64,000 nucleotides of DNA from a virus (taxonomy: Duplodnaviria > Heunggongvirae > Uroviricota > Caudoviricetes): IMG/VR virus record IMGVR_UViG_3300037418_003161, positions 32,001-96,000 of that record, one strand, 5' to 3'. Positions within the stretch are counted from its first letter, which is position 1; every line of letters starts with the position of its first letter. The translations under genes and the position numbers were made by a program. Positions 1,520-58,295 of this stretch are shown in pieces. A model generated the notes under the pieces. That model worked only from the letters and a program-made list of their open reading frames with translations, made no database searches and was not told the DNA's origin.

Positions 1520-1585
1520 TTGTTTTCATAGGATTTAAAATCCTTTCAAAACTTATTGGAAAACAACATATTTGTAAAGACTATA

Positions 1586-42200: not shown

Positions 42201-44109
42201 CCGTTCTAAAATTGCCACTTTCGAACCTAAGTTCCTTAATCCCCCCAAATCGCCAAACAACCAAAGAGGTGATGCCACTTGCAACCACACACCCATTTAG
42301 GTCATCGGCAGTAACATCTTGGTTAGTGGCTTCAATTTTATCCTGTCCACATTCTTCGCAAATGGGATAGACAGTAAGCGGTAATTCTACCTGTGAGGCT
42401 TCCTGCCATTTAGTGGCGGCATGTCGGAGTTGTTGGGAGAGTTTTTTAAGTGGCCAGAAATTAATGGCGTTTCCAATTGACCAAAGTGTGCCACCAACAA
42501 TTTCCACAATTTTAATGTGAACCATCTTCACGATAAACTTAAAGAACAACAATACGGTAGCTAAAATCAATTGAAAGTTGATGCGGTTGCGGTAGCCAAA
42601 ATTAACGGGTAGTTTGTTGGCTGAGGTATCGCAGTCTTGGTCGTCGTTTGGTAGGATTTCTTTTATACCAATAAAGGCATCACGGTGATGACCCTCAAAG
42701 TGCGTTCCATGAAAAGAAGACACACCATATACTTTGTTGTAGGTGAATTTGAAAAAATAATCTTCCGGGATGCCACTGTTGCCCTTTCCCAAAATTAAGT
42801 CCCGGATTTGGTCGTTTTGGTGCAACACCGTACCCTTTTCATTTTTGTAGCGGAAGTAGTCATCAAAATCGTCTGAAAACACATAAGAGAGTTGGGTGTC
42901 TTTGTCGGCCTCATTTAATTTACCATCGCTTCGGTTGTTAAATTCCCGGATATTGGGGACGAGGTAATACCCGACTTCCATTTTGGGATTATCAAAGTCA
43001 AAACCTATTCGAAAGCGATAGATGGCCGAAGTAGCTACCCCCCGGTTGGGGTCGTTGGTAAACTCTTCGTCTCCAAACTCGTTGGTGATAACATATTCCA
43101 TATTCATTGGAATGGTACACATCCACGTTCCGTTTTCATCAATCCTGTCCAATACGACCTTTTCCAGTTCCGGGTAATAGTTCCCATCGTGGTCTTTATA
43201 TTTTCGTCCGGTAAACCGTATGGCTTCCACATCTCCTTCATAGGTTTCCAGTTTACACTTAAAACCTTGTCTTTTTTTAGGTTTGCCGTTTTTGTTAACC
43301 GCTAATTTCCCGGCATCTGTTACCAGTGAACCTACAAACAGGGCTGAAGGTTGGAGGGAGATACCCAACTCCGAAAAATCAAAATCGGTTCTTGTAATTC
43401 CAATCTGGCAGAGGTCTTCGTTACCCCAAAACGGTACAACTTCAATGGATTTGTCAAACTTGATAATCTGTGGCAACGAATCCATATCAATTGCTGATTT
43501 GTATTTAAACCCGTTTTCAAATTGCCCCTTTTGTGCAACTCCTTGCTGCATAAGGTCATAGGGTCTTACGGAAAAACAACCAATATCGCTCAAATCCACA
43601 TCTACGTGGATGGTATGTGTACCGACAGGCACACCCCATATCATAAAATCTCCGGCAGCGTTGGTCTTTGCAGTATACTTGTAATATTTTTCATAAATCT
43701 CCAAAACCTCTTCCCGGTACAGTACGTCCTGTTTGTCGGGAAACGTACCAGTTGGAGCATGGCCGGAGTGGGATTTTCGATAGGGAAGTAAGTTGTAGCG
43801 ATAACCGTCTTCGTTTCTATCCACCGTACTTTTATAAGGATATAAAGTGGAAATAATTGGGTCATCGACATCCTCATCGGCAAGCGGCACAAAGATGGAT
43901 ACCCTTGCATTGGGAATCCCAAAACCGTGATTACTGCTCACACGTCCAACAACCACACCGTAGTCGGCACACATTCTTGTGTATACTTCAGCCTGAGAAA
44001 ATTTAAGAGAAAGAATTTCGAGCAAGTCAACGTCCTGCTCCAATTTTACAGTAATATTGTTGCTCTCACCTCCAACGGTTGTTCTGATACGATAGCTTCT
44101 TGAAGACAT
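39277..44109 (-). CDS. Large structural-module protein (1610 aa) with inserted beta-sandwich-like domain
   Basis: N-terminal 'GVVVGRV...GIPNARVSIFVP...TNAAGDFMIWGVPVGTHTI' transthyretin-like/carboxypeptidase-regulatory-like pattern; TATTTAT upstream. Confidence 0.7.
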   Translation of the reverse strand: MSSRSYRIRTTVGGESNNITVKLEQDVDLLEILSLKFSQAEVYTRMCADYGVVVGRVSSNHGFGIPNARVSIFVPLADEDVDDPIISTLYPYKSTVDRNEDGYRYNLLPYRKSHSGHAPTGTFPDKQDVLYREEVLEIYEKYYKYTAKTNAAGDFMIWGVPVGTHTIHVDVDLSDIGCFSVRPYDLMQQGVAQKGQFENGFKYKSAIDMDSLPQIIKFDKSIEVVPFWGNEDLCQIGITRTDFDFSELGISLQPSALFVGSLVTDAGKLAVNKNGKPKKRQGFKCKLETYEGDVEAIRFTGRKYKDHDGNYYPELEKVVLDRIDENGTWMCTIPMNMEYVITNEFGDEEFTNDPNRGVATSAIYRFRIGFDFDNPKMEVGYYLVPNIREFNNRSDGKLNEADKDTQLSYVFSDDFDDYFRYKNEKGTVLHQNDQIRDLILGKGNSGIPEDYFFKFTYNKVYGVSSFHGTHFEGHHRDAFIGIKEILPNDDQDCDTSANKLPVNFGYRNRINFQLILATVLLFFKFIVKMVHIKIVEIVGGTLWSIGNAINFWPLKKLSQQLRHAATKWQEASQVELPLTVYPICEECGQDKIEATNQDVTADDLNGCVVASGITSLVVWRFGGIKELRFESGNFRTVTPDSTTCPSAAPLSYQQLGGLENQFLNFIPDEGPTNRYAIAIMPLTGTVDSSSVLIISNPGNYFTFYDNRWNIQFPDVETAVEIGSEIDPQFSTRYEDTQGIGIAAETFKFEIYDLQGSFTNDMPVIPEFTIEEGCDRYDKFYNEDLLHPNYGYWWATKDSDYGSPQVSLEVQNNSVVSTGSAYGGGIYPPEVMRYVSYSDTQRYIEISGLDPSANYNIKLVGSKKITATGSTEATVYTIGGQSITLATSNNLTNAAIFTAIQPIGDKITINLDKQLVTQAYNYINGMTITRNTPGVGSGVININFYGGIDPYNDPTWNDFNVGLGQQNNVEMFNLMDTLGQPTGVGVVLSYSMNVATNDIISQFQKIFNSTLRDYDATTNRQGVIATAPYTVNDYSIIAAVGATSSAIGLPDVVNYSKIGTKTYARKTKSGYTEIRNGVVIIVPTIRGKSNNISILKEWYHRNLISTAFCGGVVNHSFIDNWLTGVLYAFKFKFRKGASNFIDAIINGRSFKYPNELVYYDAPTGSFYYRSTPFDKKTNSFVGQHNTYAGRSYKEILRPTTIADLGPRDEFIEEICTDKRVDPNCSVIRDIGQTSYQNIEEIIEFAINYRMDITNSKLKLKDFFDRQIGGVKIFDGDIIQLESINCEAGVEEFDLDSPKYFMYSGELLDPDDPNTSAYFKDMTTTGTTKLNYGPTPIDFKLDDNGRRVRLCLNHPDFLGETSQVVPFYLWDKKGEGFGTAKNSDDQEFKKDLIVAEKLQRIYSINFQFDYIIANINDLVKYTPLYGRRILVLSSGSYNNPLSGQIFEGDNYSWQDKGLYQRQTNYLFPDGTEEYILYPMTKEHELLDFRINGVDAMERFDFVSTNPNDRFNNMNAPEGTIFLYVTPANANNTVDNPLTGKMYIMKNNAWAGPYDYSRNESDVFISPTANNYRGNLQVLSTPFLYYFGIRPGKTAFDRFITAFGYKGAFKDNG

Positions 44110-47162: not shown

Positions 47163-47621
47163 TTAGATGTTTATGATTACAAAGTCTTTGGTATCAAACA
47201 CGGAACTGTTTTTAATGGTATAGTCAATTCTAATTTGGGCGGTATGTTGAAGTGAATCAGAAGTCCCCAAACGAAACAAACGGTTGTCCAGTTCCGGGTT
47301 GGTATTTTTTAGACTTTGGTCTTCATTTTCATCAGCCGCTTGGATGGTAATGGATTGAATGTCCAAGTTGGGGATATATTTTTTACATGATTCCCGGATT
47401 TCTTCTTCAATAGAGGAAAAGGTTTGTCCGTCCATGGGTTCAAAAATGAAATCGTAAAGCCGGGTTCCAAAGTCCGGCAGGAAGAAACGACTTCCTTTTC
47501 TTGTTAAAATCAAATGAATCAGGTTGGAGCGGATTTCCTGTTGAGCGGTTTCTGTCATCCTGATAAAATCTCCTTTACTTGAATCTTGGAAGGGAAAACT
47601 TATCCCATAATAATTCCTCAT
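47163..47621 (-). CDS. Baseplate wedge protein gp25-like
   Basis: 'GISFPF', 'NLIHLILTRKGSRFFLPDFGTRLYDFIFEP' GPW/gp25 signature. Confidence 0.9.
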   Translation of the reverse strand: MRNYYGISFPFQDSSKGDFIRMTETAQQEIRSNLIHLILTRKGSRFFLPDFGTRLYDFIFEPMDGQTFSSIEEEIRESCKKYIPNLDIQSITIQAADENEDQSLKNTNPELDNRLFRLGTSDSLQHTAQIRIDYTIKNSSVFDTKDFVIINI

Positions 47622-47658
47622 GTTAATAAATATATAAAGCGGGATTCTTGGTATACTG

Positions 47659-47690
47659 TTTGATTTAACTTTGTTTTTGTATTATCTTTG
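47659..47690 (+). promoter_or_regulatory. Bacteroidota sigma-A type promoter (TTTG-N20-TATCTTTG)
   Basis: TTTG 47659-47662 and TATCTTTG 47683-47690, 20 nt before ATG 47711. Confidence 0.7.
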
Positions 47691-47710
47691 TTTTTCAATT
47701 TGTAGCCTAA

Positions 47711-48379
47711 ATGAAGAAATTTTTAATCTGCGCCATGTGGCTCTGTGGCTGTAGTAAAAACCATATTGAGCCTACCAGTGTGTCTATCACCCTTACTCCC
47801 CCGGAAAATTCAAACTTCGTAATTCTGCTTGATTTTGATGGAGCGTCCACAAATGGAACACATTGGGGAGATTATACCCTTACTCCATCTTCTATAGAAG
47901 GAGATGCGGTTCGGACAGTTGCGCAGGGGGTGTACGATGCTTTTGCCCCTTTTGGTGTGGTGGTCACAACGGATGAATCGCTTTATCACCAATTTCCGAT
48001 TTCCAAAAGAATAAGGGCCGTTTTTACAAATACCATCATTACAAAGCAAGAACTTGGTGGGATTTCTATCCTAAATTCTGTATCTTTTAATGATGATACG
48101 CCAGTGATAATATATAGTAGTGTTTTGAACAACTACCTTCCATTGGTTATAAGAGCGACCATTCATGAAATTGGTCATGGTTTTGGTCTCAGACACCAAT
48201 CAGATTATGACGACAAGTGCGTTAGGGTAAATGAGTATTCTGAAGGGTCGGGCCAAACAGTTCCATTTATGGGTGATATATACCGAGGTACGACAGGGGT
48301 TTGGCGAAAAGGCCCTTCCCAACTTGGTTGTAGTATAATACAAGACGACACTGCGATTATCAGGAAGGTGATATTCTAA
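47711..48379 (+). CDS. Putative lipoprotein zinc metallopeptidase (metzincin-like)
   Basis: MKK + hydrophobic stretch + LCGC lipobox; HEIGHGFGLRH (HExxHxxGxxH); downstream PFMG Met-turn. Confidence 0.8.
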   Translation: MKKFLICAMWLCGCSKNHIEPTSVSITLTPPENSNFVILLDFDGASTNGTHWGDYTLTPSSIEGDAVRTVAQGVYDAFAPFGVVVTTDESLYHQFPISKRIRAVFTNTIITKQELGGISILNSVSFNDDTPVIIYSSVLNNYLPLVIRATIHEIGHGFGLRHQSDYDDKCVRVNEYSEGSGQTVPFMGDIYRGTTGVWRKGPSQLGCSIIQDDTAIIRKVIF

Positions 48380-48389
48380 AAAAATATTT

Positions 48390-48419
48390 TTTGTTTTTCA
48401 AAAAGTTGTTTTATCTTTG
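48390..48419 (+). promoter_or_regulatory. Bacteroidota sigma-A type promoter
   Basis: TTTG 48390-48393, 18-nt spacer, TATCTTTG 48412-48419, upstream of ATG 48443. Confidence 0.6.
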
Positions 48420-48442
48420 TTTTAGAAACAAACAACAACATC

Positions 48443-50050
48443 ATGGAAGCAATTTCTTACAAACATCTCCTGTCTGAATACAAGGAGGAAATTGAAAAAC
48501 AACTCATTGCGCTTTGCAAGGTCGCCAAGCGGGTAGGCGTTCCCGAACCAACTTGGAAATTCAGTGAAGAATATGAATTTGAGTTTTCCGCTCAGGTTGG
48601 TTTCACGCAGGAAGCCGATGCCAACGGTTCGTGGGTTGAACCCGAACACGAAACCTTTATTGAGAAGGTTTTCGACATTGAAATCGACTTAGCCCAAACA
48701 ATCAAAATGGAGGGTGGTTGGAGCATTGTAGCCGCCATTTCTCACCGGGAAGGCGTTATCATCCAAATCGATGAGAATGTTGAACTTCCTGCCCGGTTTA
48801 AACCCCAAATCGACACCTGTGAGCATTGTGGTCGTTCTTTCCCAAGGGTTAAGTCTTTTGTGGTGGTTAACGAGCAGGGGGAATTCAAACAGTTGGGTAA
48901 GACCTGTATGAAGCAGTTCTTGGGTGTCAATCCCATCAGTTACATTTCCATGTTTGAAGCTGTTTCCAAATTCAGCAACTTTATTCTGACAACCGGGTAC
49001 TCCAAAAACGGTGGTGGTCGTTTGGATAACTTGGCCTACAATGTGGATGAACTGCTGCGTTATACCATTGGCACAGTTCAGCGTGAAGGTAAGTTCGTTA
49101 AGGCTGAATGGGAAGAAAGAGTTATTGATACAAATCGGTGGGGTCAAGAAATCACTAAAAACTTCCGCACCAACTTGGGTTATGCCACCATCGACAAGGT
49201 GAAAGAAATCCTGAGTGCCAAAATTTACTTCCGTTACAACGAAAACAAGCTGGCCGAGGCTCAGGCAATCACCCAAGAGCAGTTGGATAAAATTAAGCTG
49301 AGGGCTGCAAATTACTATGCTCATTATCAAAAATGGGCCAAACTGTTCGAAGCCGAGAACACCGAAGACTATAAAACAGCCGCTAATGAGGCTTATTATC
49401 AATATTCCACAAGAAAGGAAGTTATTGATTTGTATGACACCTATCAGACCTATTTAAAGGGGTTAACCGACCTGTTTTCCTACAGCGAGGAAGTGGAGAA
49501 GATAAAGAAGTGGGCGGCAGATATCACCATAAGAATGAAGAAAGAGGTAGATGAGGAAGATGGGGAGATTAAGGAAGTTGTGGCTTCCAATTTTGAAAAC
49601 TTCAAAATTGGTGTTAGGGAAAGCTTCCAAAAAGAGCGTATTCTGCAAAGCAATTTAAAATACATCTGCACCGGGTACAACCTGTACCTGAAAGATTTGG
49701 AATACAAAGCCACGAATGCTGACCGTTTGGCAAAAGCCGCAGCATCTACCCATGTGGGTGTGGTTGGCGAGAAGTCTCATTTGGTATTAAAAGTAACAAA
49801 CTACAAAACCGGGTTTGGTACTTTTGGGACATGGCATCTGTGGACATTAGAGGATGCACAAGGCAACCAGTTTAAAAAATTTGGTACGTTGGATGAAAAA
49901 CATATCATCCAAAAGGCCGAAAATGGTGAATTGGTTGGCAGCACCTTGGAAGCCCTGTTTGAAATCAAACAACACGAAGACTTTCAGGGGTGCAAAATCA
50001 CCCAATTGGGTCGGGGTAGCAAGGTTAAAAACGCCAAGTATGTCAAATGA
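48443..50050 (+). CDS. Phage hypothetical protein with CxxC...C zinc motif and probable C-terminal OB-like domain
   Basis: CEHCG...QLGKTC; C-terminal 'HVGVVGEK...FGTW...DAQGN...IKQHEDFQGCKITQLGR'. Confidence 0.7.
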   Translation: MEAISYKHLLSEYKEEIEKQLIALCKVAKRVGVPEPTWKFSEEYEFEFSAQVGFTQEADANGSWVEPEHETFIEKVFDIEIDLAQTIKMEGGWSIVAAISHREGVIIQIDENVELPARFKPQIDTCEHCGRSFPRVKSFVVVNEQGEFKQLGKTCMKQFLGVNPISYISMFEAVSKFSNFILTTGYSKNGGGRLDNLAYNVDELLRYTIGTVQREGKFVKAEWEERVIDTNRWGQEITKNFRTNLGYATIDKVKEILSAKIYFRYNENKLAEAQAITQEQLDKIKLRAANYYAHYQKWAKLFEAENTEDYKTAANEAYYQYSTRKEVIDLYDTYQTYLKGLTDLFSYSEEVEKIKKWAADITIRMKKEVDEEDGEIKEVVASNFENFKIGVRESFQKERILQSNLKYICTGYNLYLKDLEYKATNADRLAKAAASTHVGVVGEKSHLVLKVTNYKTGFGTFGTWHLWTLEDAQGNQFKKFGTLDEKHIIQKAENGELVGSTLEALFEIKQHEDFQGCKITQLGRGSKVKNAKYVK

Positions 50051-50294
50051 TTCCCTTATTATTGAATTATTAAAGAAGCGTTATGTGGGTGAGTATGAAA
50101 GATTTACCATACTCAGCTTTTACAAACACTATTTTTTGGATAATACCTATTGGATGGTGGTCATATGGAATATGGATGAAGACTCTACCATAAAGTCTAC
50201 CATACAGGAGCGAATGAAAGCACATAAAGCCGTAACTAATATTCTCAATGAAATCAGAACCTATTATGGTATCACCATTGATTGGACAGCATGA
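50040..50294 (+). CDS. Hypothetical protein (84 aa)
   Basis: MSNDSLIIELLKKRY...; its ATG overlaps the end of the previous gene (3' part of track ORF 49854..50294). Confidence 0.65.
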   Translation: MSNDSLIIELLKKRYVGEYERFTILSFYKHYFLDNTYWMVVIWNMDEDSTIKSTIQERMKAHKAVTNILNEIRTYYGITIDWTA

Positions 50295-50425
50295 AACTAG
50301 TAAAATTAATATATAGTCATTCCAAGCCCGGTACGCAGCCGTGAGGCGGTTGCGTAAAACTACTCGATTTTTAAAATAAAGTTAAAAAGATTTGCATTTT
50401 TAAAAAACCCATACAATCTTTGATT

Positions 50426-50480
50426 GGTTTTTCATAGGATATTGGATTAAACGAGGCTGGATTTCTATCCGGCCTTTTTT
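50426..50480 (+). ncRNA. Candidate trans-acting small RNA
   Basis: Near-consensus promoter TTTG(50391)-N20-AATCTTTG(50415-50422), seed TTTTTCATAGGAT, then a terminator; no ORF on this strand. Confidence 0.4.
50454..50480 (+). terminator. Intrinsic terminator
   Basis: AGGCTGGAT-TTCT-ATCCGGCCT followed by TTTTT. Confidence 0.75.
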
Positions 50481-50485
50481 ATATT

Positions 50486-50516
50486 AAAAACAACCCCCGG
50501 ATTTTTCCGGGGGTTG
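50486..50516 (-). terminator. Intrinsic terminator after the RNR gene
   Basis: CAACCCCCGG / CCGGGGGTTG perfect 10-bp stem with a T run on the minus strand. Confidence 0.8.
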
Positions 50517-50556
50517 GCGCAGCAGTCCTTTGAAATTTATTTCAAGGTAAAGATAA

Positions 50557-53094
50557 TTAACTACAACGTGACATGCCACAGGATTTGCACTTTTGGCAAC
50601 CTTCCTGCAAAATCATTCCTTCAGGGTCGCCACATTCATCACACTTCCGGTCAGTCTCAGACACCTCAGTTAAATATTTCTTCAGCGTCCTTGCAATGGC
50701 CTTGGAAAAAGACAGGATATTACCATTAGATTTTTGTAGTTGGTTATAGATATGTTTAATATCCGAACCATGACGCAAGCTATTGGAAATCATCCGGGTC
50801 AGGGCTTCTTGCTCATCGGTTTCAAATAATTCTCCAATGTTTTCCAACTGCACGTCACCGTCCCCAATAGTAAGGTCATAATGGCCGGACTTAATTCTTG
50901 TCAATTTTCCGTGTTTTATCTTATCAGAGAGGACAATACCCTTCTTTTTAAAGGCAAACACCTCATAAGGGTCTTTCCCATAGAGACCAACCAAAACCAA
51001 CCATTTTTCTCCTGCCACCGACACATTGTGGATGTCACAATTAAGCATTTTAGGCCGTTTAGGGGCATCATTTTTCCTGATGCCATCTCCATCCTCTTTT
51101 TTCTCTGTAGAGGAAAGAACGGTGGTCATAGTCCCTTCACGATAGGTTGTTGCTCCTTTAATAACCCCGGTTTTATAACATTCCATATAAAGGTGTTTAA
51201 AATCCTCATATGGATATTCTTTGGGTAGATTTACCGTCTTGCTCATAGCCGAATCAATATATTTTGCCATAACTGCCATAGTGTTCACATGCTCATCAAT
51301 GGCAAGTTGTGTGGTGGTTGCGGCCCATTCTGCTGTAGCATCCCACTCACCTCTCTCAGCCAAATAACGAACGGCATAGTCTTGAACAACGGTTTCACGG
51401 AGCAGACCCCTTGATTTATCCACTTTATAGACATACCCACCAAATTCCGTTTTTAAGAGGTTTTCGTCCCCTTCCTTTATCCACACCCATTCAGTTGTAG
51501 AATCGAAGGTTTTACTGTCCCAATTGATGTTTTTGGGTCTATCTAAACCTTCCGGTGCATACGGCATAATAGCAGTACGTATATATTCCGGCAAGAATAC
51601 TGGCTCAAGGCCACCCGATACGTTGTTGGCAAAAACAGACGAGTTCCCGGTTGGTTGAATTGAGAGCAGATGTGAATTGCGAACCCCATATTCAGCAATC
51701 ATATCCCTTGTTTCTTGCGAAAGAACTTTTACAAAATTACCGGACAGATATTTGTGTTTATCAAATAAAGGAAATGCGCCCTTTTCTTTTGCCAACGTTG
51801 CCGAAGCCTGATATGCGGTATTGGCAATAAATTCATAAAGCTTCTCAGTAATTTCAAGGGCTTTTTTCGAACCATAACGAAGCTTCATCATCATAAGGGC
51901 AGAACCATATCCCATAATACCAAGACCGATTCTTCTCTTATTTTTTAAATTTTCTTTTTGTGATTCCAATGGAACATATGTAACATCATTTACATTGTCC
52001 ATGAAACGAACAGCAATTGGAATAACCTTTTTTAACCCTTCATAATCCCAATCTCTTTTTTTGAAATTAACAAATTGGGTTAGGTTGATAGAACCTAAAA
52101 GGCAAACACCTCCAATCGGAAGGATTTGTTCCCCACATGGATTTGTCGCAGAGATATATTCTGAATAGTATAAGTTGTTCAGACGGTTCATTGTGTCAAC
52201 GAACAAAACCCCCGGCTCATTTCTGTTGTAGGTGGACTTCATAATTGTTTCCCACAACTCATTCGCATTTTCATAAGTTTTGTATATAACCGTTTCATAC
52301 CCACGGCCCTTCCATTCTTTCAAATTACCGTTCCAGTATTTCTTATACTCTTCTTTGTGTAACTCATAATTTGGAAATTCCAAACTCCATGGTTTGTTGT
52401 TTTCAACTGCATCCATGAATTCATCGGTTGCCAGTACCGACATATTAAATTTGGTAAGACGGCCTGAAGTTAGTTTGGCTGTTATGAATTCTTCGATATC
52501 AGGATGCCACACGCTCATTGTAACCATTTGTGCGCCTTTCCTGATTTTAACTTTAGCCTCTTTTTTCTTTGATTTTTTTCCCGAACCTTCTGTAATAACT
52601 GCGGATTGTGTATCCCACATATCCAACATTCTTACTGCACCGGGTGATTCATTAGCAATTCCTTGAATGAAAGCACCTCTTGGTCTCATTACATCTGCAC
52701 ATACACCGTAACCTCCTTCTGATTTTAATATCATTGCTTGACGTTGAAGAGATTGGAGAATACCTACCATACTGTCTTGGTCTTCGCCCATAAACCCATC
52801 AACAAAACAATTAATATAAGTTGTTCCCTTAAGACCCGTTCCTGCATTTGATGTGATACGGCCACCGGGAACGAATCTGAAATTTTCCTGTAACCACAAA
52901 AATTGTTGTGTCCAATAATCTTTGTCTTCTTCTACTTTTGCTAAATCCTTTGCAACACGAAGCTGCGTGGTGTTTATGTTTTCTTCTCCATATCGGTAAG
53001 TCTGTTCATATATCTCCTTACTGAAATCATCGGTAAAAACCGTATTAATAGAAAAGTCTACCTCTTGGGCTTTTTGCTTAATTGTTTGTTCCAT
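50557..53094 (-). CDS. nrdJ: Class II (adenosylcobalamin-dependent) ribonucleotide reductase
   Basis: PGGR, NCFV, TNPCGEQ, CLLGSINL, IQPTG, MSKTVNLP, YREG; C-terminal TSCPD-like domain and CxxC...CxxC ribbon; no adjacent beta-subunit gene. Confidence 0.85.
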   Translation of the reverse strand: MEQTIKQKAQEVDFSINTVFTDDFSKEIYEQTYRYGEENINTTQLRVAKDLAKVEEDKDYWTQQFLWLQENFRFVPGGRITSNAGTGLKGTTYINCFVDGFMGEDQDSMVGILQSLQRQAMILKSEGGYGVCADVMRPRGAFIQGIANESPGAVRMLDMWDTQSAVITEGSGKKSKKKEAKVKIRKGAQMVTMSVWHPDIEEFITAKLTSGRLTKFNMSVLATDEFMDAVENNKPWSLEFPNYELHKEEYKKYWNGNLKEWKGRGYETVIYKTYENANELWETIMKSTYNRNEPGVLFVDTMNRLNNLYYSEYISATNPCGEQILPIGGVCLLGSINLTQFVNFKKRDWDYEGLKKVIPIAVRFMDNVNDVTYVPLESQKENLKNKRRIGLGIMGYGSALMMMKLRYGSKKALEITEKLYEFIANTAYQASATLAKEKGAFPLFDKHKYLSGNFVKVLSQETRDMIAEYGVRNSHLLSIQPTGNSSVFANNVSGGLEPVFLPEYIRTAIMPYAPEGLDRPKNINWDSKTFDSTTEWVWIKEGDENLLKTEFGGYVYKVDKSRGLLRETVVQDYAVRYLAERGEWDATAEWAATTTQLAIDEHVNTMAVMAKYIDSAMSKTVNLPKEYPYEDFKHLYMECYKTGVIKGATTYREGTMTTVLSSTEKKEDGDGIRKNDAPKRPKMLNCDIHNVSVAGEKWLVLVGLYGKDPYEVFAFKKKGIVLSDKIKHGKLTRIKSGHYDLTIGDGDVQLENIGELFETDEQEALTRMISNSLRHGSDIKHIYNQLQKSNGNILSFSKAIARTLKKYLTEVSETDRKCDECGDPEGMILQEGCQKCKSCGMSRCS

Positions 53095-53115
53095 TTTTTT
53101 TATTCCGAAAACTGT

Positions 53116-54507
53116 TTATTTTTTATTTTGATTTTGCTGTTCGTTAAATAAAGCGGCTTCCCTTATGCGGCTTTGTCTGCGCTTCATTTCTTGCGCTTCT
53201 TTATCCACTTCAAAACCAAGGAAAGTGCTGCACGACTCGGTGTCTATTCTTAAGTACTCGTTATCGAACGTACAATTGTTAAACACCAACCCATCTGGCC
53301 CTATGCGGGATTTGGTGATTGCCATGGTTGCCAGTTTGTTTTCTTTTTGGTTGAGGGTCTTGGCAATGGTGATGATAACGTGGCCCACTTGTGCTTTTTT
53401 AATTGAACCTCCCATTTGGTCGGTTGTGACCACATCCGATGCAATGGAACTGCGGTTTCCTTGGGTAGCGACCCATGTAGCTACATCCAATTCATGACCC
53501 ATCGCTTCAATTTGGCGCATCAGTGTACCCTCGTTCACCCAATCTTCTCCACCTGAAATAATACAGTCAACATAGTCAATAATGATAAGGTCGATTTTAC
53601 CTACTTCAGCAATTACTTTTAGGATACGGCTTTTTAAATCCGCAAACGTGTAGGTCTCAGAGGGGTATTTACGCAAAATGAGCTTACCAGTACACTTGGC
53701 TTTGAACTCTTCAAGTATGGCTTTTATTCGCTCTACCTGATTGCCTTGGTCATTAGGAGAAATACCTGTAATTCCGCATATATGTTTACGTTGGATTTGT
53801 TTCTTTTTATCCTCAAAAAAGATATGCAGTACATTGTACCCCAACTTGTATGCAGTATTGGCAAACTTGGTAGTAATGGTTGATTTTCCCACACCAGTTG
53901 GCGCAAGGATAACACCTAATTCTCCTTTACCCAATCCCCCACTGAGTGGGTCATCCAAACCTTTTATGCCTGTGGGTATAGGGTGTCTGAAATCCGGGCT
54001 GAGAACTTCATCCAAATCATCAAAAACGTCCTTGGTGTCCTCATCATCCTGAACACCCACTTGCAGGGCCTCCCGGATGAGTTCTTCTGCCTTGTCGTAG
54101 TTTTCAAAGTCACCCTTCTTAATCATGGTGTCCACCTTTTTGATGGCTTTGTGCAACTCCTGTTGTTTACAGAATTTAAGGGCTTTTTCTTTGATGAAGG
54201 AGCTTTCCCCGGCTTCAATTTCAAGGGCTTTAACCTCCTTTAAAACGTCCATTACGTATTGACGTGCCATGTCGGATTTGATGTCGCTCACCACCAACAT
54301 ATCCAACGAATCGAAAGTGGGAATGGAGTCGTATTTTTCAGCGAATTCTTTAATCAGTTGAACGATGAGGCGGTAGTAATCGTTGTCGAAATACTTAGAA
54401 TTTATGGTGTGTATTATCGAGTGTGAAAACTTCTTGTCGGTAATCAGTAAGTAGAGTAGAGAAATTTGAAATTTGTGTCCTAGATATCCAAAATTTTTGT
54501 CACTCAT
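53116..54507 (-). CDS. dnaB: Replicative helicase (DnaB / T4 gp41-like)
   Basis: Walker A APTGVGKS, IIIDY Walker B, ATQGNR, KSRIG. Confidence 0.9.
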   Translation of the reverse strand: MSDKNFGYLGHKFQISLLYLLITDKKFSHSIIHTINSKYFDNDYYRLIVQLIKEFAEKYDSIPTFDSLDMLVVSDIKSDMARQYVMDVLKEVKALEIEAGESSFIKEKALKFCKQQELHKAIKKVDTMIKKGDFENYDKAEELIREALQVGVQDDEDTKDVFDDLDEVLSPDFRHPIPTGIKGLDDPLSGGLGKGELGVILAPTGVGKSTITTKFANTAYKLGYNVLHIFFEDKKKQIQRKHICGITGISPNDQGNQVERIKAILEEFKAKCTGKLILRKYPSETYTFADLKSRILKVIAEVGKIDLIIIDYVDCIISGGEDWVNEGTLMRQIEAMGHELDVATWVATQGNRSSIASDVVTTDQMGGSIKKAQVGHVIITIAKTLNQKENKLATMAITKSRIGPDGLVFNNCTFDNEYLRIDTESCSTFLGFEVDKEAQEMKRRQSRIREAALFNEQQNQNKK

Positions 54508-54553
54508 TTTTTCATAGGGATTAAATGTAAAAAATAAATATGCTCAATGGGGC

Positions 54554-54994
54554 TTAAAGTGCCACCCCATTGAACTCAGTTTCATAGACATCCTGCGACA
54601 ATGTGTCAGAAATTTTGGTTAGAATATTTCTAATTTCAGGACGTACATCTACCGTGTATCGTACCTTGGGAGGATAAATGCTTGCCGGGAATTGTCTAGC
54701 GATAATCACGTCATCGCCCAACCGAACTTGCATTGTGAAGTACTCCGAAGTGGGAACTGTAGTTTGGTCAGGTGAGTTGCCCAAAAATTTTTCATTTTCA
54801 AATAAAAACTCACTGGATTTTTTCTTCAAATCAGCCTGAATATCATTGGCTATATCTTGAATGGTTTCATACAAATCAAGCGACCTTCTTACTTTGGGAT
54901 TGTATCCTTTCACGTTAAAAAACCGTTGGCACACAATGTTGTTTTCCAGAGTAATTAAAAATTCAAACTTGGTTGTTGCATCTGCTTTTTTCAT
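54554..54994 (-). CDS. Hypothetical protein in the replication block
   Basis: Likely start ATG 54994 (MKKADATTKFEF), which avoids a long overlap; 146 aa. Confidence 0.7.
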   Translation of the reverse strand: MKKADATTKFEFLITLENNIVCQRFFNVKGYNPKVRRSLDLYETIQDIANDIQADLKKKSSEFLFENEKFLGNSPDQTTVPTSEYFTMQVRLGDDVIIARQFPASIYPPKVRYTVDVRPEIRNILTKISDTLSQDVYETEFNGVAL

Positions 54995-55005
54995 AGGGTA
55001 ATTGA

Positions 55006-56013
55006 TTAATTGTTGTTTTTGTAAAATTGTTTTTCTTTCCGAGCCAGTTGCAGCAGCGGAGCCAAATAGTCTATCCAACCATCATTGATGCGGGGTAAAT
55101 AGTTGAACAGCCCATCTTCCTTCATCATGCGCAACAGGTTCTTCCATCCCCGGTCTTCGGGGTCGAGTGGTACGGTAATAATTTGAACTATGTCTGATTT
55201 TGCTTGTTCGGTCAAGTGGGGATTCGATAAATCCACCAATTTTTTATTTATATCAAAGAAAGATTCTCCCAACACACCATGTTTGGTGACACCATTTACT
55301 AAATGAACTATGGTTTTGCTTGGCTTTGAACTACAAGCCAAACTTTCGGCTATCGGCCAAATGTCTTGGAGGGTGGTGGGATTCTCCCCAATTAAAGGAA
55401 AGTGTTTTATAAGCGTTTTTAGACCCATTCCTTTGATTCCTGCCACGTTATCGCTTTCATCGCCGCAAATCGTTTTTACAAGGCTCACATTACACGGTGG
55501 AATGGTTATTCCATCTATGTTCACCTTATCGTTGTGGGTGATAAACTGAGATTGGCGGGGTAGGTAGACCTTCACCCTTTCATTGATAAGTTGGGTTACA
55601 TCGATGTCCCCGGAAAACACGGTGATGTATTCTTCTGCTGCATTGGCGCAATAAAACGCAATGCAATCGTCCGATTCTACGTTTTCATATTCACCCTGCC
55701 GGACGAAGAGTTCTTCCAAGTATTGTTTTATGCGTAGTTTTTGATAGGCACTTGACGCTTCGTCTTCTTCAGATTTGTATCTATCCCGCCTATTTTCTTT
55801 ATAGGTAGGATAGATAGCTCTTCTGAGGGAATCGTTGTTTTCTCCATCCCAAAACACAACAATTTTATCATATTGAAATTCTTCCAAATGCTTTTTGAGG
55901 GTATGGATGAAATGGAACAATCCACCGATATGTTGTCCTTGGTAATAATAGTCTTTAACCCCAAACAATCCAATCTTGAATAGATTGTCTCCATCAATAA
56001 TCAAAGTTTTCAT
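55006..56013 (-). CDS. 5'-3' exonuclease / flap endonuclease (PolA N-terminal, T4 RNase H-like)
   Basis: LIIDG, VFWDG, YK.NR, ESDD, SGD.D, GDESDNVAGIKGMG helix-hairpin-helix. Confidence 0.9.
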   Translation of the reverse strand: MKTLIIDGDNLFKIGLFGVKDYYYQGQHIGGLFHFIHTLKKHLEEFQYDKIVVFWDGENNDSLRRAIYPTYKENRRDRYKSEEDEASSAYQKLRIKQYLEELFVRQGEYENVESDDCIAFYCANAAEEYITVFSGDIDVTQLINERVKVYLPRQSQFITHNDKVNIDGITIPPCNVSLVKTICGDESDNVAGIKGMGLKTLIKHFPLIGENPTTLQDIWPIAESLACSSKPSKTIVHLVNGVTKHGVLGESFFDINKKLVDLSNPHLTEQAKSDIVQIITVPLDPEDRGWKNLLRMMKEDGLFNYLPRINDGWIDYLAPLLQLARKEKQFYKNNN

Positions 56014-56051
56014 AGCATACACATGATTGTTTTATGGAGAACAACCAAACC

Positions 56052-57107
56052 TTAGTCCATGTCTTCTGTTTCGATATCTGTTACAATGTCTTCTTCTGCA
56101 AATTCTACCTCATCTCCCAAGAGGGCTTCATCGTCACCACCAATTCGCATGATGTCAGCCCAATATTCCGCATACTGGCTTTTGTATGATTTAATTGCTT
56201 CAGGATTATCATCAATAAAACCGTGTGGAACGGCTATGATGCTACTATCCGCATATCCCAAACCGTGAACGTGATTTTTAACCACCGTCACTTTTGTTCT
56301 GATACCGAAGTTGACCTTACGCCCCTTGTGAACCAAGGAAATTTGGGATGTTCCGGCATGGGCCTGATTGCCGCAACGAATTACCAAGTTGGCCGACAAA
56401 TAAATGGCCTGTCCACCCTTGGGCTGCATTGTGCCTTGTCCCATAACCGGGTTGTCGGGTAATCTGAACCATGGTTGGTTGATGATGATGGCCGTATTGC
56501 GGTACGGATAAGAAGCTTTGTTGGAAGCTTGGATTTTTTGTGCAATACTTTCACCCCATCTTTCTTTGATAACCCTTGCCGTATGCATTGTACCGCCTTT
56601 ACCGTCATACGACATTTTACACGGTACAGTACCCACAGAATCCCACAGGAATAACAAGTCATAGGGAATGTTTCCGGCTGCTTGTTCGTCCAAGAGTTCT
56701 TTGATGTAGTCAAAGATTTGTTCGATGTATTCAAACCCTAATTTATAGAGCATGAAGCCACCCCAATATTCCGACCCATCTTCTCTTATTTTCAATTCGC
56801 AATCCAACCCCATGTCTTTTGCGTGTTGGAAGGAGAACTTTTGTTCTGTGAAAAGAAATACTGGTAGGATGCCTCTTTTTTGGGCCGCTACTGCGGCAAG
56901 GCTTAAAATGGTGGTCTTACCAGTGTTTGACCAACCAAGGATTTGTGTGATGCCACCCAAGGGAATTTGTACCCCGGAGGCTTTATAAAACGATTCACCG
57001 ATGCTCAGCCATTCTTGGTCTTTGTATCTGTCGTTGCTTGAAAATTTTTCTTGTAATGCTTCGAAATTAAATTCTTTCTTTTTTGTTGCTTTTTTCTCTT
57101 TAGCCAT
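56052..57107 (-). CDS. recA: RecA/UvsX-like recombinase
   Basis: GWSNTGKT Walker A, WDSVG, IINQ, PKGG, VVKNHV. Confidence 0.85.
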   Translation of the reverse strand: MAKEKKATKKKEFNFEALQEKFSSNDRYKDQEWLSIGESFYKASGVQIPLGGITQILGWSNTGKTTILSLAAVAAQKRGILPVFLFTEQKFSFQHAKDMGLDCELKIREDGSEYWGGFMLYKLGFEYIEQIFDYIKELLDEQAAGNIPYDLLFLWDSVGTVPCKMSYDGKGGTMHTARVIKERWGESIAQKIQASNKASYPYRNTAIIINQPWFRLPDNPVMGQGTMQPKGGQAIYLSANLVIRCGNQAHAGTSQISLVHKGRKVNFGIRTKVTVVKNHVHGLGYADSSIIAVPHGFIDDNPEAIKSYKSQYAEYWADIMRIGGDDEALLGDEVEFAEEDIVTDIETEDMD

Positions 57108-57130
57108 AAAATTTTTACCGAAATGGGATT

Positions 57131-57161
57131 AAAAAACGGATAAGTGATTTATCCGTTTTTT
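57131..57161. terminator. Bidirectional intrinsic terminator between the SSB-like and recA-like genes
   Basis: AAAAAACGGATAA / TTATCCGTTTTTT inverted repeat. Confidence 0.7.
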
Positions 57162-57178
57162 ATGTGCTTATATTCTTA

Positions 57179-58060
57179 TTAGAATGGGAGGTCATCACTA
57201 TCAGCATCGTAGGTTTCTGCCCCTACTTCCTCTTCATCTTCCTGTAAGAATTTTTGTGCGCTTGAGGTAGAAGAAAGTTCTAATGCTTCTTCTTCTTGAT
57301 TGCCCCACACATACTTTTTCAGTTGGGTAGACCATTTTGGCTCGAAGCCATCGGCGACACCTTGCAAATAATCCAAGGGTTTTTTGCTGTACACGTCTTC
57401 CCAAGTGGATTCATCAGCCAACCATTCTTGCATGATTTCTGCATCAGCGTGTAGCGGAGAGGGGTCTTCGGGTAAGATGCTGCTAACAGCAGTGTAAGAA
57501 GACTTCTTATTAGGGGTTTCGGTTTTTACAAGGTTCAAAACCAAGTCCCGGCCAGTTTGTGCATCGGCAATATCACCCTTCTTTCTGTAGATAGGGATGA
57601 TTTTATCCATCACACCATCACCCTTCCATGCTTCTTTAAAGCGATAGAATTTGGGGCCGTGGGCTTCATTGGCTCGGTCAATCAATTTAACAATATAGAA
57701 CTTTTTGGGTTTATATTGTTTGGCCAGTTCCTTATCCCCTTTTGCTAATAAATTTGCATGTGTTTCGTTTAGGGGTGAGGGTTTGCCTTCGTTCATTCCG
57801 GGGTCATACAACTTTACGTATTTACCACCCAAGTATACTTCATGAAAATACACTTCTACAAAGGGTGAGCCGTCTTTTACTGGAAGGATTCGAACAGTGG
57901 CTTCGGCTGTTGTACCAACCGGGGCTTTTTTGTCGATTTGAGGAGAGAAGTAGCGTTTGAGTCTTTCTTCTTCGGTTAACTTTGGTGTTTGTTTCGGACG
58001 TGTTGCTTCTTGCTTGTTCTTCTCATACTGAGCAAGAACAGCTTCTAAACTGTTACTCAT
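57179..58060 (-). CDS. Single-stranded DNA-binding protein (T4 gp32-like)
   Basis: 'VRILP', 'YFH', 'TGRDL.L'; acidic C-terminal tail ending DDLPF; adjacent to recA. Confidence 0.75.
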   Translation of the reverse strand: MSNSLEAVLAQYEKNKQEATRPKQTPKLTEEERLKRYFSPQIDKKAPVGTTAEATVRILPVKDGSPFVEVYFHEVYLGGKYVKLYDPGMNEGKPSPLNETHANLLAKGDKELAKQYKPKKFYIVKLIDRANEAHGPKFYRFKEAWKGDGVMDKIIPIYRKKGDIADAQTGRDLVLNLVKTETPNKKSSYTAVSSILPEDPSPLHADAEIMQEWLADESTWEDVYSKKPLDYLQGVADGFEPKWSTQLKKYVWGNQEEEALELSSTSSAQKFLQEDEEEVGAETYDADSDDLPF

Positions 58061-58106
58061 AGGATAGCGATTAAAAAATAATAATTAAAAAAAATACTTA
58101 GAACAA

Positions 58107-58135
58107 ATAATACAAAAAATTATTGATAATGTCAA
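58107..58135 (-). promoter_or_regulatory. Sigma70-like promoter TTGACA-N17-TATTAT
   Basis: Minus strand TTGACA (58135-58130), 17 nt, TATTAT (58112-58107), upstream of the SSB gene. Confidence 0.5.
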
Positions 58136-58237
58136 GTCATTTACTGTATATATAAATATCTTTTGGGTGTTCTTCGAGTCAGCTTTCAAGGGCTTTTTTT
58201 GCCTTATTTTTCTCTGAAACTGATACAAAATAATACG

Positions 58238-58270
58238 AAAAAAAAAGGGTGAAGTCAATAGCTTCACCCC
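58238..58270 (-). terminator. Intrinsic terminator
   Basis: GGGTGAAG-loop-CTTCACCC followed by a long T run on the minus strand. Confidence 0.75.
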
Positions 58271-58295
58271 GATTTTATCCATTTATTATTCTTTT

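What the first reader, a model, noticed from the sequence alone, without database searches (positions are those of the whole stretch)
50391..50480. Candidate phage sRNA with a 5' seed complementary to start regions of five DNA-metabolism-block genes
Seen: an ORF-free plus-strand unit with a near-consensus Bacteroidota promoter (TTTG-N20-AATCTTTG), then TTTTTCATAGGATA (50428-50441), then a terminator. The same plus-strand word, i.e. the complement of minus-strand mRNA, occurs at the start regions of ruvC (TTTTCATAGGAT, 1523-1534, 12/12), dnaB (TTTTTCATAGG, 54508-54518), the 146-aa gene (TTTTTCATAGG, 54987-54997), the 5'-3' exonuclease (TTTTCATAGcAT, 56007-56018, 11/12) and SSB (TCATAGGATA, 58057-58066). 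I did not see it at structural gene starts. Inference: a ~55-nt trans-encoded antisense RNA could co-regulate translation of the replication/recombination genes. Caveats: the word is AT-rich and contains ATG, and the promoter's -7 box has one mismatch.
Basis: partly seen in the sequence, partly recalled or inferred. Interest (0 to 1): 0.85.

Follow-up and report, generated by a model that had tools for sequence, protein, structure and literature searches.

The report
Phage-borne copy of host sRNA
A large soil phage carries one copy of a small-RNA gene that Chitinophagaceae bacteria, its likely hosts, keep in several copies per genome; the RNA is predicted to block translation by pairing over start codons, possibly those of the phage's own DNA-replication genes.

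Summary
The unit is not a phage invention, though. Window 50426-50482 (+) is a full-length member of a multicopy sRNA family of Chitinophagaceae. My covariance model scores it 76.1 bits (E 1e-16), and it is the only copy in the 236-kb phage record. Five bacterial genomes hold 5-13 copies each. The exact 20-nt 5' word occurs in 134 of 201 sampled genomes of that family, and the reversed control occurs in none. In three soil or rhizosphere DNA runs, other contigs match only 50422/8-50480/4 and have unlike flanks.

The architecture matches Bacteroides FopS: a sigma-ABfr-type promoter, a single-stranded 5' seed and a terminator. The Rfam FopS model gives only 17.4 bits against a cut-off of 56, so it is FopS-like, not FopS.

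The target claim is only moderately supported:
- Phage start regions pair with the seed better than those of one Chitinophagaceae genome (13/260 vs 6/370 at or below -15 kcal/mol).
- Against this, antisense copies of ordinary start regions do as well in 7.5-12.5% of trials.
- At ruvC and dnaB the motif's AUG is an out-of-frame mini-uORF, not the start codon.

No expression data exist.

The parts
50392..50395 (+). -33 element TTTG of a sigma-ABfr-type (Bacteroidota) promoter
   Evidence: Read from the sequence. It lies 20 nt upstream of the -7 box. The upstream half of the promoter (TTTG plus A-rich spacer) ranks 16th of 472,742 genome positions on a PWM built from the phage's own promoter family.
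50416..50423 (+). -7 box AATCTTTG (consensus TAnnTTTG; 7 of 8)
   Evidence: The ATCTTTG core is identical to the phage's ~35-40 early promoters. The whole-promoter PWM rank is 106 of 472,742. 123 host family upstream regions carry t-A-T-n-T-T-t-(g/a) at -14..-7 before the seed; here the box sits 1 nt closer. Several host copies also lack T at box position 1, reading cATCTTTG.
50426..50482 (+). Predicted ~57-nt sRNA transcript; both ends are inferred, not mapped
   Evidence: CM R1 match at 50424-50491, 76.1 bits, E 4.6e-17. Unrelated contigs in three DNA runs match just 50422/8-50480/4. It matches up to 56 of 57 positions of host copies, median 52.
50426..50448 (+). Single-stranded 5' seed region GGUUUUUCAUAGGAUAUUGGAUU
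   Evidence: The 20-nt core was the search key. Outside the key, the flanking G at column 4 is invariant and G3 and T25 are at least 90% conserved in 122 sequences. The region is mostly unpaired in the MFE and centroid folds. It aligns to the 5' end of the Rfam FopS consensus.
50453..50482 (+). Rho-independent terminator: stem-loop 50453-50476 plus U-tract 50477-50482
   Evidence: Terminator scan. Fold of 50424-50484: -18.2 kcal/mol, z -3.07. In the family alignment 7 of 12 predicted pairs show compensatory changes.
1523..1534 (-). Predicted target site in the ruvC leader (AUCCUAUGAAAA, 12/12); its AUG opens a 5-codon out-of-frame uORF
   Evidence: Duplex -15.9 kcal/mol, rank 8 of 260.
54508..54525 (-). 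Predicted bipartite target site in the dnaB leader (UUUAAUC + CCUAUGAAAAA); its AUG opens the uORF MKK-stop, which overlaps the dnaB AUG
   Evidence: Duplex -15.1, rank 11 of 260. Box co-occurrence test.
54987..54997 (-). Predicted target site at the start codon of the 146-aa gene (CCUAUGAAAAA)
   Evidence: Duplex -15.0. No Pfam or PHROG family.
56007..56018 (-). Predicted target site at the start codon of the 5'-3' exonuclease gene (11/12)
   Evidence: Duplex -14.8, rank 14 of 260. phrog_107 exonuclease.
58057..58066 (-). Predicted target site at the start codon of the SSB gene (UAUCCUAUGA), with UUUAAUC 3 nt upstream
   Evidence: Duplex -18.0 with the 23-nt seed, rank 4 of 260; -21.6 with 27 nt, rank 1 of 282.

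Best explanation
Window 50426-50482 (+) is a gene for a ~57-nt small RNA of a multicopy sRNA family of Chitinophagaceae bacteria. It is predicted to be transcribed from its own sigma-ABfr-type promoter and to repress translation by pairing its single-stranded 5' end across start regions, likely including those of the phage's own polB, ssb, ruvC, dnaB and exonuclease mRNAs.

**Shown.** Family membership, the single copy in the phage, the promoter-like and terminator elements, and complementarity to these start regions.

**Inferred.** That the RNA is made during infection, that pairing occurs, and that pairing blocks initiation as shown for Bacteroides FopS. The phage would then add to, or substitute for, the host's own 5-13 copies. 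It would gain an RNA-based brake on replisome synthesis, comparable in logic to the T4 RegA protein. Readthrough from the upstream plus-strand operon would end at the same terminator and carry the same seed.
For: **Family membership.**
- The exact 20-nt 5' word is found in about 5200 stored stretches of GTDB genomes. Of the 120 loci fetched, I counted 92 labelled Chitinophagaceae/Chitinophagales or a genus of that family, 27 with broader Bacteroidota labels and 1 'uncultured bacterium' (genus-to-family assignment checked for two genera, the rest recalled).
- The word occurs in 134 of 201 genomes of one family, with 0 reversed-control hits.
- There are 5-13 CM hits per genome in 5 of 5 genomes, and a single 76.1-bit hit in the phage.
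- The terminator covaries in 7 of 12 pairs.
- A conserved -7 box lies at a fixed distance in 123 upstream regions.
- In DNA runs X1-X3, other contigs match only the unit. They carry host-type variants (TT inserted after 50446, A>G at 50454), and the assembly breaks at 50451-50480.

**Mechanism by analogy.** FopS sRNAs have a sigma-ABfr promoter, a single-stranded 5' seed and a terminator. They bind at start codons and block translation in vitro, with compensatory mutants (PMC11697453, passages read).

**Phage targets.**
- 13/260 phage TIRs vs 6/370 bacterial TIRs at or below -15 kcal/mol (Fisher 0.018; Mann-Whitney 9e-5).
- Contiguous matches of 11 nt or more: 4/260 vs 0/370. CTATGAAA among TATGAAA-bearing TIRs: 9/18 vs 2/37, p 2.8e-4.
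- The CTATGA core co-occurs with a TTAATC/TAAATC box, the complement of the sRNA's GGAUUAAA: 7/20 vs 9/240.
- 5 of 13 core replication/recombination genes are in the top 14 of 260. None of 11 structural genes is in the top 35.
- Matches extend into different parts of the sRNA in different genes, as expected for RNA pairing and not for a fixed protein site.
Against: - No transcript evidence of any kind.
- The -7 box has A instead of T at position 1 and lacks the T-rich flanks of the phage's strong promoters (whole-PWM rank 106).
- Reverse complements of 120 real phage start regions pair with other start regions as well as this RNA in 7.5% (top 5), 10% (top 15) and 12.5% (count at or below -15) of cases.
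Over all 13 genes the shift is not significant (Mann-Whitney p 0.10), and with the wider PHROG category of 22 genes p is 0.58.
- UvsX, NrdA, primase, SbcC, SbcD, helicase and ligase have no site (ranks 117-256).
- Several top-ranked sites belong to unrelated genes: a 140-aa unknown, a glycosyltransferase and a PcfJ-like protein.
- The bacterial control (a Hanamia MAG) is not a known host.
- The box co-occurrence test was devised after seeing the motif.
- The only other viral contig with a family member (L184, 59 kb) has no CCTATGAAA besides the sRNA gene itself.
- Related phages could not be reached, so co-conservation is untested.
Confidence: 0.55

Rival explanations
1. Host-directed mimic. 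The phage copy acts on host mRNAs, the normal regulon of the bacterial family, to reprogram the infected cell (for example envelope or transporter synthesis). The matches at phage start regions would be by-products of a shared A/U-rich AUG-AAA start context.
For: - The seed is invariant across a bacterial family, so it must have conserved bacterial targets.
- FopS targets are host susC and PUL mRNAs (PMC11697453).
- The start-region-antisense null is not clearly beaten.
- The second viral contig with a copy shows no enrichment of the word.
Against: - No bacterial target was identified. 15 SusC start regions of one genome pair weakly (best -14.1, mean -10.0).
- CCTATGAAAA is not enriched in two bacterial genomes (15 vs 21 and 29 vs 31 reversed controls).
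- Exact 12-mers in five genomes are almost all the sRNA genes themselves.
- Phage start regions pair better than bacterial ones.
- This rival does not exclude the best explanation.
Confidence: 0.25
2. Passenger or terminator only. The unit is a recently captured piece of host DNA with no regulatory role. The phage keeps it at most as the intrinsic terminator of the plus-strand operon 47711-50294.
For: - It is the only canonical plus-strand terminator downstream of that operon.
- The promoter is weaker than the phage's strong promoters.
- The linker is 2-4 nt shorter than in most host copies.
- Carriage by viruses is rare: of 4 IMG/VR contigs with the 20-mer, 1 holds a real unit.
Against: - The whole unit is intact and matches up to 56 of 57 positions of host copies.
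- It keeps a -7 box at the family's distance, shifted by 1 nt, behind a phage-type -33 and spacer.
- The same sequence is seen in a second study's run with no differences over 50169-50480 (X2).
- Phage start regions are enriched for its complement.
Confidence: 0.12
3. Cis element. The (UUUAAUC)-CCUAUGAAAA words at phage start regions are a site for a protein (a RegA-like translational repressor) or part of a phage-sigma promoter or leaderless start context. Their complementarity to the sRNA would be coincidental.
For: - The phage is T4-like and encodes its own sigma factor.
- Many of its mRNAs look leaderless.
- In three genes the word sits upstream of the real AUG as a mini-uORF.
- The distance from the TTAAT box to the real AUG is roughly constant at 8-14 nt, read.
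Against: - No RegA (PF01818) match in the record. That search's control rang nowhere and the record is estimated 73% complete, so this is weak.
- In five genes the word's AUG is the start codon itself, which does not fit a promoter lying upstream of the transcription start.
- Flanking matches follow the sRNA sequence and differ between genes (polB, SSB, ruvC).
Confidence: 0.1

Closest known systems
FopS family of paralogous sRNAs of Bacteroides thetaiotaomicron (Rfam RF04319; PMC11697453)
   Same: - Multicopy paralogs per genome: 14 in B. theta, 5-13 here in Chitinophagaceae.
- Canonical sigma-ABfr promoter.
- Length of about 55-70 nt, with a single-stranded 5' seed directly at the 5' end, then only a Rho-independent terminator.
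- The 5' end shares UG-UUUUUCAU-G--UAUU-GAU with the FopS consensus.
- The FopS seed pairs at start codons and blocks translation.
- The FopS paper also notes the sequence in one Caudovirales phage.
   Different: - The Rfam model gives 17.4 bits against a cut-off of 56 for the phage copy. It is over the cut-off in 0 of 5 Chitinophagaceae genomes and only in the B. theta control.
- My model finds matches in only 6 of 151 sampled Bacteroidota genomes.
- The host class differs: Chitinophagia from soil, not gut Bacteroidaceae.
- SusC start regions are not clearly targeted.
- Here the best complementary sites lie in a phage's own replication genes.
GibS sRNA of Bacteroides (PMC7366714)
   Same: It shares the R1 seed with FopS and binds translation initiation regions. 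The bacterial genomes here also hold a second, longer sRNA type with the same 5' word, recalling the GibS/FopS pair.
   Different: GibS is about 145 nt, has a second seed (R2) and a non-canonical promoter, and is reported as conserved within the genus Bacteroides (passages read).
T4 RegA translational repressor (recalled knowledge; Pfam PF01818)
   Same: It is a functional analogy only. In a T4-like phage, a single factor is proposed to repress translation of several replication genes by occupying their start regions.
   Different: RegA is a protein. No PF01818 match was found in this record (weak, because the control was silent and the record is incomplete).
Prophage- and phage-encoded trans-acting sRNAs such as DicF (recalled knowledge, no call)
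   Same: A small RNA encoded on phage DNA that pairs with start regions.
   Different: As I recall, those are phage-lineage RNAs acting on host mRNAs. This one is a near-identical copy of a host multicopy family, and its best sites are in phage genes.

Membership tests
Chitinophagaceae multicopy sRNA family (defined here; alignment A2, model R1) | Full-length match to the family covariance model | tested here: met
   76.1 bits, E 1.3e-16, model positions 1-71 of 71. Bacterial copies score 72-91 bits. The window sequence was row 1 of the 122 used to build the model, so the score leans slightly towards it.
Chitinophagaceae multicopy sRNA family (defined here; alignment A2, model R1) | Invariant 5' end GGUUUUUCAUAGGAUAUUGGAUU | tested here: met
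   Identical in the phage. The 20-nt core was the search key, so its invariance is by construction. The flanking G4 (invariant) and G3 and T25 (at least 90%) are not.
Chitinophagaceae multicopy sRNA family (defined here; alignment A2, model R1) | Terminator hairpin with U/C-rich tetraloop region and U-tract, with covarying stem | tested here: met
   The phage stem is identical to the stems of L002, L106 and L107. 7 of 12 predicted pairs show compensatory changes.
Chitinophagaceae multicopy sRNA family (defined here; alignment A2, model R1) | Own -7 promoter box (TAnnTTTG-like) at a fixed distance from the 5' GG | tested here: met
   The host box spans -14..-7 in 123 upstream regions. The phage box AATCTTTG spans -13..-6, a 1-nt shift and a 7 of 8 match.
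Rfam RF04319 BTncRNA_FopS | Score at or above the gathering threshold (56 bits) | tested here: not met
   17.4 bits, E 0.73 on 96 nt. 0 of 5 Chitinophagaceae genomes are over the cut-off; the B. thetaiotaomicron control is.
Rfam RF04319 BTncRNA_FopS | Architecture: sigma-ABfr promoter, single-stranded 5' seed, single terminator hairpin, about 65-70 nt | tested here: met
   The phage RNA is shorter, about 57 nt.
Rfam RF04319 BTncRNA_FopS | R1/R1' seed sequence | tested here: inconclusive
   The cmscan alignment shares UG-UUUUUCAU-G--UAUU-GAU, with a 2-nt insertion in the phage RNA. No statistical support.
Rfam RF04319 BTncRNA_FopS | Represses susC/PUL mRNAs at the start codon | tested here: inconclusive
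   15 SusC start regions of one Chitinophagaceae genome: best -14.1, mean -10.0 kcal/mol against -8.1 for shuffled seeds. No strong site was found. Function cannot be tested with these tools.
Rfam RF04319 BTncRNA_FopS | Bound and antagonised by the RRM protein RbpB | not testable with these tools
   RRM_1 proteins are present in 5 of 5 bacterial genomes, 1-9 each. None is in the phage record.
T4 RegA-type translational operator | A RegA (PF01818) gene in the same genome | tested here: not met
   0 matches. The control search rang in none of the 14 genomes and the record is estimated 73% complete, so this is weak.

The most novel reading that the evidence does not exclude
A T4-like jumbo phage of Chitinophagaceae has captured one gene of its host's multicopy start-codon-masking sRNA family. 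It has wired its own replisome and recombination genes (polB, ssb, dnaB, ruvC, 5'-3' exonuclease) to that seed. Phage DNA replication would then be throttled by an RNA equivalent of T4 RegA and would also be coupled to whatever stress signal drives the host's own copies.
Probability: 0.3. Interest if true: 0.85.

Novelty: new variant of a known kind. Interest (0 to 1): 0.68.

Why it matters
- **A large unfiled sRNA family.** The exact seed occurs in two thirds of sampled Chitinophagaceae genomes, several copies each. No Rfam family reaches threshold for it. Two full-text searches found no paper on an sRNA of Chitinophagaceae or on GibS/FopS conservation beyond Bacteroides. It would extend FopS-type start-codon masking from gut Bacteroidaceae to a different class of soil Bacteroidota.
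- **Regulatory RNA moving between host and phage.** A lytic-type T4-like jumbo phage carries a near-identical copy behind a phage-style promoter.
- **A possible new control circuit.** If the phage's replication genes really are targets, this would be an RNA-based counterpart of protein translational repressors of replication genes. It would also be a direct line from host sRNA regulons to phage development.
- **A host clue.** The sRNA gives an independent host assignment (Chitinophagaceae) for an uncultured 236-kb phage.

Tried and rejected
- **Rfam.** At gathering thresholds there were 0 matches in the window and in 16 bacterial loci. E-value scans gave only sub-threshold hits such as SorY, MicC and FopS.
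- **tRNA or tmRNA origin (attachment site).** 0 genes in the window. No integration-category PHROG hit appeared among the listed hits (up to five per protein) for the 260 ORFs.
- **Relatives of the phage.** None in IMG/VR with NrdA or the 535-aa neighbour, alone or as an alignment. None in metagenome contigs. GenBank phages gave only distant T4-like hits of 22-26% identity. Proteins about 50% identical exist on JGI contigs of 79-390 kb, but their DNA could not be fetched. Co-conservation of seed and targets therefore stays untested.
- **Sequencing runs.** No RNA holder was listed. Only three DNA runs could be laid.
- **Earlier findings.** The search of earlier findings returned nothing for this genome.
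- **RegA (PF01818).** No match, and the control was silent.
- **RRM protein in the phage.** None.
- **SusC start regions as bacterial targets.** Weak.
- **Exact seed-complement words in bacterial genomes.** Nearly all are the sRNA genes themselves, and CCTATGAAAA is not enriched.
- **The second viral record, L184.** No extra CCTATGAAA.
- **Model scan of 101 genomes of the 'order'.** It gave 5 hits, but only 49 of about 3000 candidates per genome were scored. I do not use it as a prevalence figure. The exact-word scan replaces it.
- **Rejected: the locus is just one more minus-strand start-like copy with an 11-codon ORF.** The plus-strand unit is conserved across thousands of bacterial loci.
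- **My first gene caller mis-set some starts** (genome 13008 and 196477). The later tests used a uniform first-ATG caller on both phage and bacterium.

Full report
**Setting.** The window is bases 32001-96000 of a 236,419-nt IMG/VR virus record, linear and estimated 73% complete. Its genes mark a T4-like jumbo myovirus:
- baseplate wedge and hub, tail sheath and tube, major head protein, portal and terminase
- NrdA, DnaB-like helicase, UvsX-like recombinase, SSB, family-B DNA polymerase, SbcCD-like nuclease and primase
- a phage sigma factor

Start regions are A/U-rich with almost no G upstream, so there is no Shine-Dalgarno sequence. That fits a Bacteroidota host. The finding lies in a 262-nt convergent gap. 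On one side is a short plus-strand operon (47711-50294). On the other is the minus-strand nrdA gene (50557-53094), which has its own terminator at 50516-50491.

- TTG-type -33 element: TTTG at 50392-50395.
- -7 box: AATCTTTG at 50416-50423.
- The 14-nt word at 50428-50441, and a plus-strand terminator (stem 50453-50476, then a T-run), are all there.
- RNA 50424-50484 folds to -18.2 kcal/mol (z -3.07). Nearly all of that energy is in the terminator, and the 5' 28 nt are essentially open.
- All five copies of the word are at the stated coordinates.

Two corrections are needed. First, at ruvC and dnaB the AUG inside the word is not the gene's start codon. It opens out-of-frame mini-ORFs of 5 and 3 codons that end on or just past the real AUG. 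A third case of this kind precedes an LRR-protein gene at genome 4314. Second, CCTATGAAAA also starts a lipoprotein-like ORF and an Hsp20 gene, so the word is not limited to DNA-metabolism genes.

**The promoter belongs to a phage family.** The phage has some 35-40 copies of a strong promoter, TTTG...AAAA..TTGTTTTATCTTTGTTTTA. Many sit 4-6 nt before an ATG, which suggests leaderless mRNAs. The candidate shares the ATCTTTG core, the TTTG and the A-rich spacer. Its upstream half ranks 16th of 472,742 positions. It lacks the T-rich flanks of the core, so the whole promoter ranks 106th.

**The decisive result came from other DNA.** I laid three soil or rhizosphere DNA runs on 47500-58500.
- One run may be the source of the record.
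- A second, from another study, reproduces 50169-50480 without a difference.
- In all three runs, several other contigs match only 50422/8-50480/4 at 85% or better and then run on into unrelated sequence.
- The assemblies break at 50451-50480, and depth doubles in that bin.
- The variants in these other copies are TT inserted after 50446 and A>G at 50454.

The roughly 55-nt unit is therefore a repeat shared with other genomes, and its edges are exactly those of the proposed RNA.

- By my count of the titles, 92 of 120 loci are labelled Chitinophagaceae/Chitinophagales or a genus of that family. 27 carry broader Bacteroidota labels and 1 reads 'uncultured bacterium'. The family assignment was checked for two genera and is recalled for the rest.
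- Almost every locus has the same anatomy: a TAnnTTTG-like box, 4 nt, GG, the invariant 5' stretch, a short U/A linker, a GC-rich hairpin and a U-tract.
- I dropped one locus (L075), which has the word but no hairpin, and the loci too short to span the unit. That left 121 distinct bacterial rows plus the window.
- In this alignment 7 of 12 predicted pairs show compensatory changes.
- A covariance model built from it finds exactly one strong match in the phage (82424-82491 of the record, 76.1 bits, E 1e-16).
- It finds 5, 11, 13, 6 and 5 matches (E at or below 1e-3) in five bacterial genomes.
- The exact word occurs in 134 of 201 sampled genomes of that family, up to 9 times per genome, with no hit for the reversed word.
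- In an even sample of the phylum the model hits 6 of 151 genomes.
- The phage unit matches bacterial units at up to 56 of 57 positions, median 52.
- Its stem is identical to that of three MAG copies, whose -7 box also lacks the first T.

**What it resembles.**
- The best-fitting named family in an E-value scan is Rfam's FopS. The alignment covers model positions 1-71 and window 50424-50483, and the two share the 5' UG-UUUUUCAU-G--UAUU-GAU and the terminator.
- From the passages I read of PMC11697453, FopS are 14 paralogous sRNAs of about 65-70 nt in B. thetaiotaomicron. They have canonical sigma-ABfr promoters and a single-stranded 5' seed followed by a terminator.
- They pair next to the start codon of susC mRNAs and block translation in vitro, and compensatory mutants restore the effect. 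The RRM protein RbpB counteracts them.
- The authors report the family as conserved within Bacteroidaceae and mention its sequence in one Caudovirales phage.
- Membership is not met here. The phage copy scores 17.4 bits against a cut-off of 56, and no match is over the cut-off in five Chitinophagaceae genomes, while the B. thetaiotaomicron control is.
- No Rfam family reaches threshold on 16 bacterial loci.

**Does it act on the phage's own genes?**

Evidence for:
- *Start regions compared.* I used one uniform gene caller (first ATG, 60 aa or more) and the 23-nt seed. Phage start regions pair better than those from 400 kb of a Chitinophagaceae genome. 13 of 260 against 6 of 370 reach -15 kcal/mol or lower (Fisher 0.018; Mann-Whitney 9e-5).
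- *Contiguous matches.* Matches of 10 nt or more: 9/260 vs 3/370. Matches of 11 nt or more: 4/260 vs 0/370.
- *The C before TATGAAA.* Among start regions holding TATGAAA, a C precedes it in 9 of 18 phage cases and 2 of 37 bacterial cases (p 2.8e-4).
- *A second complementary box.* The core co-occurs with TTAATC/TAAATC, which is complementary to the RNA's GGAUUAAA: 7 of 20 against 9 of 240. That test was devised after seeing the motif.
- *Gene class.* After PHROG annotation of all 260 ORFs, 5 of 13 core replication/recombination genes fall in the top 14: polB rank 2, SSB 4, RuvC 8, DnaB 11 and exonuclease 14. The hypergeometric p is 2e-4. None of 11 structural genes is in the top 35.
- *polB.* It lies far outside the window, and its start region matches the seed complement at 13 of 14 positions.

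Evidence against:
- The shift over all 13 genes is not significant (p 0.10), and the wider PHROG category of 22 genes shows none (p 0.58).
- Seven core genes have no site.
- Several top sites are in unrelated genes.
- Reverse complements of 120 ordinary phage start regions do as well as this RNA in 7.5-12.5% of cases, although 0 of 80 shuffled RNAs do.
- The second viral record with a family member has no extra site.

**Bacterial targets remain unknown.**
- Exact 12-mers complementary to the seed in five genomes are nearly all the sRNA genes themselves, plus a second, longer sRNA type with the same 5' word.
- CCTATGAAAA is not enriched in two genomes.
- SusC start regions pair only weakly.
- RRM-domain proteins, the class of the FopS partner RbpB, are present in 5 of 5 bacterial genomes and absent from the phage record.

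**Verdict.**
- The unit is almost certainly a genuine sRNA gene of a bacterial family, carried once by a T4-like jumbo phage whose host is therefore probably a Chitinophagaceae bacterium.
- Its mechanism, start-region masking, is inferred from architecture and from FopS.
- The idea that it throttles the phage's own replication genes is plausible and has some statistical backing, but it is not established.
- Action on host mRNAs is an equally natural reading and does not exclude the first.
- No expression data could be obtained, because no RNA holder was listed.
- No related phage could be reached.

Noticed in passing
window 155(-), 280(-), 47690(+), 48419(+); genome-wide about 35-40 copies: The phage has a highly repeated early-type promoter, TTTG..AAAA..TTGTTTTATCTTTGTTTTA. 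Many copies have an ATG 4-6 nt after TTTG, suggesting leaderless mRNAs. Seven copies have no ORF of 45 aa or more close downstream (record positions 9912-, 32280-, 151589-, 167152+, 180510+, 201785+, 208331+). These could drive small ORFs or further small RNAs.
   Followed up: partly
window 54507-54515 (-), 1514-1529 (-); record 4255-4326 (-): Mini-uORFs overlap real start codons: dnaB (AUG AAA AAA UGA, whose stop overlaps the dnaB AUG), ruvC (5 codons), and a 20-codon uORF before an LRR-protein gene.
   Followed up: partly
loci L137, L149, L153 (two Chitinophagaceae genomes): A second, longer sRNA-like unit has the same 5' UUUUCAUAGGAUA word, followed by AAGGUUUAAUGGUUAAUGGU and its own terminator. 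It is conserved between genomes and recalls the GibS/FopS pair (sub-threshold FopS hits).
   Followed up: partly
loci L005, L007, L024, L039, L048, L066, L073, L082: One subfamily of bacterial copies carries a cTATAGGA(t/a)a box about 40 nt upstream of the seed. The box resembles the seed itself and could be an operator or a relic of tandem duplication.
   Followed up: no
loci L009, L029, L036, L064, L120: Tandem pairs of the sRNA gene lie 135-215 nt apart in bacterial genomes.
   Followed up: no
record 13088-13927 (-), outside the window: The phage encodes an RNA polymerase sigma factor (phrog_351, E 5e-54). A second promoter class is therefore expected.
   Followed up: no
window 48443-50050 (+) and 49854-50294 (+): Two plus-strand ORFs overlap by 197 nt. 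The 535-aa one has homologs about 50% identical on contigs of 79-390 kb. The 146-aa one has no family hit.
   Followed up: partly
window 50332-50355 (+): An 11-bp hairpin lies just after the plus-strand operon. It has no adjacent U-run and was not called as a terminator.
   Followed up: no
window 32750-37582 (-) and 39277-44109 (-): Two ORFs of exactly 1610 aa lie close together with no PHROG hit. Several neighbouring large ORFs share phrog_15511.
   Followed up: no
window 542-859 (-); record 114402-114935, 118638-120248, 120998-122611, 171810-173477: There are at least five homing/HNH endonuclease genes, including two paralogs of about 537 aa flanking the tail-tube gene.
   Followed up: no
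locus L184 2458-2524 (-), IMG/VR contig of 59 kb: A second viral contig carries a family member (51.9 bits) with its own TATATTTG box, next to endolysin-like and metallophosphoesterase genes.
   Followed up: partly
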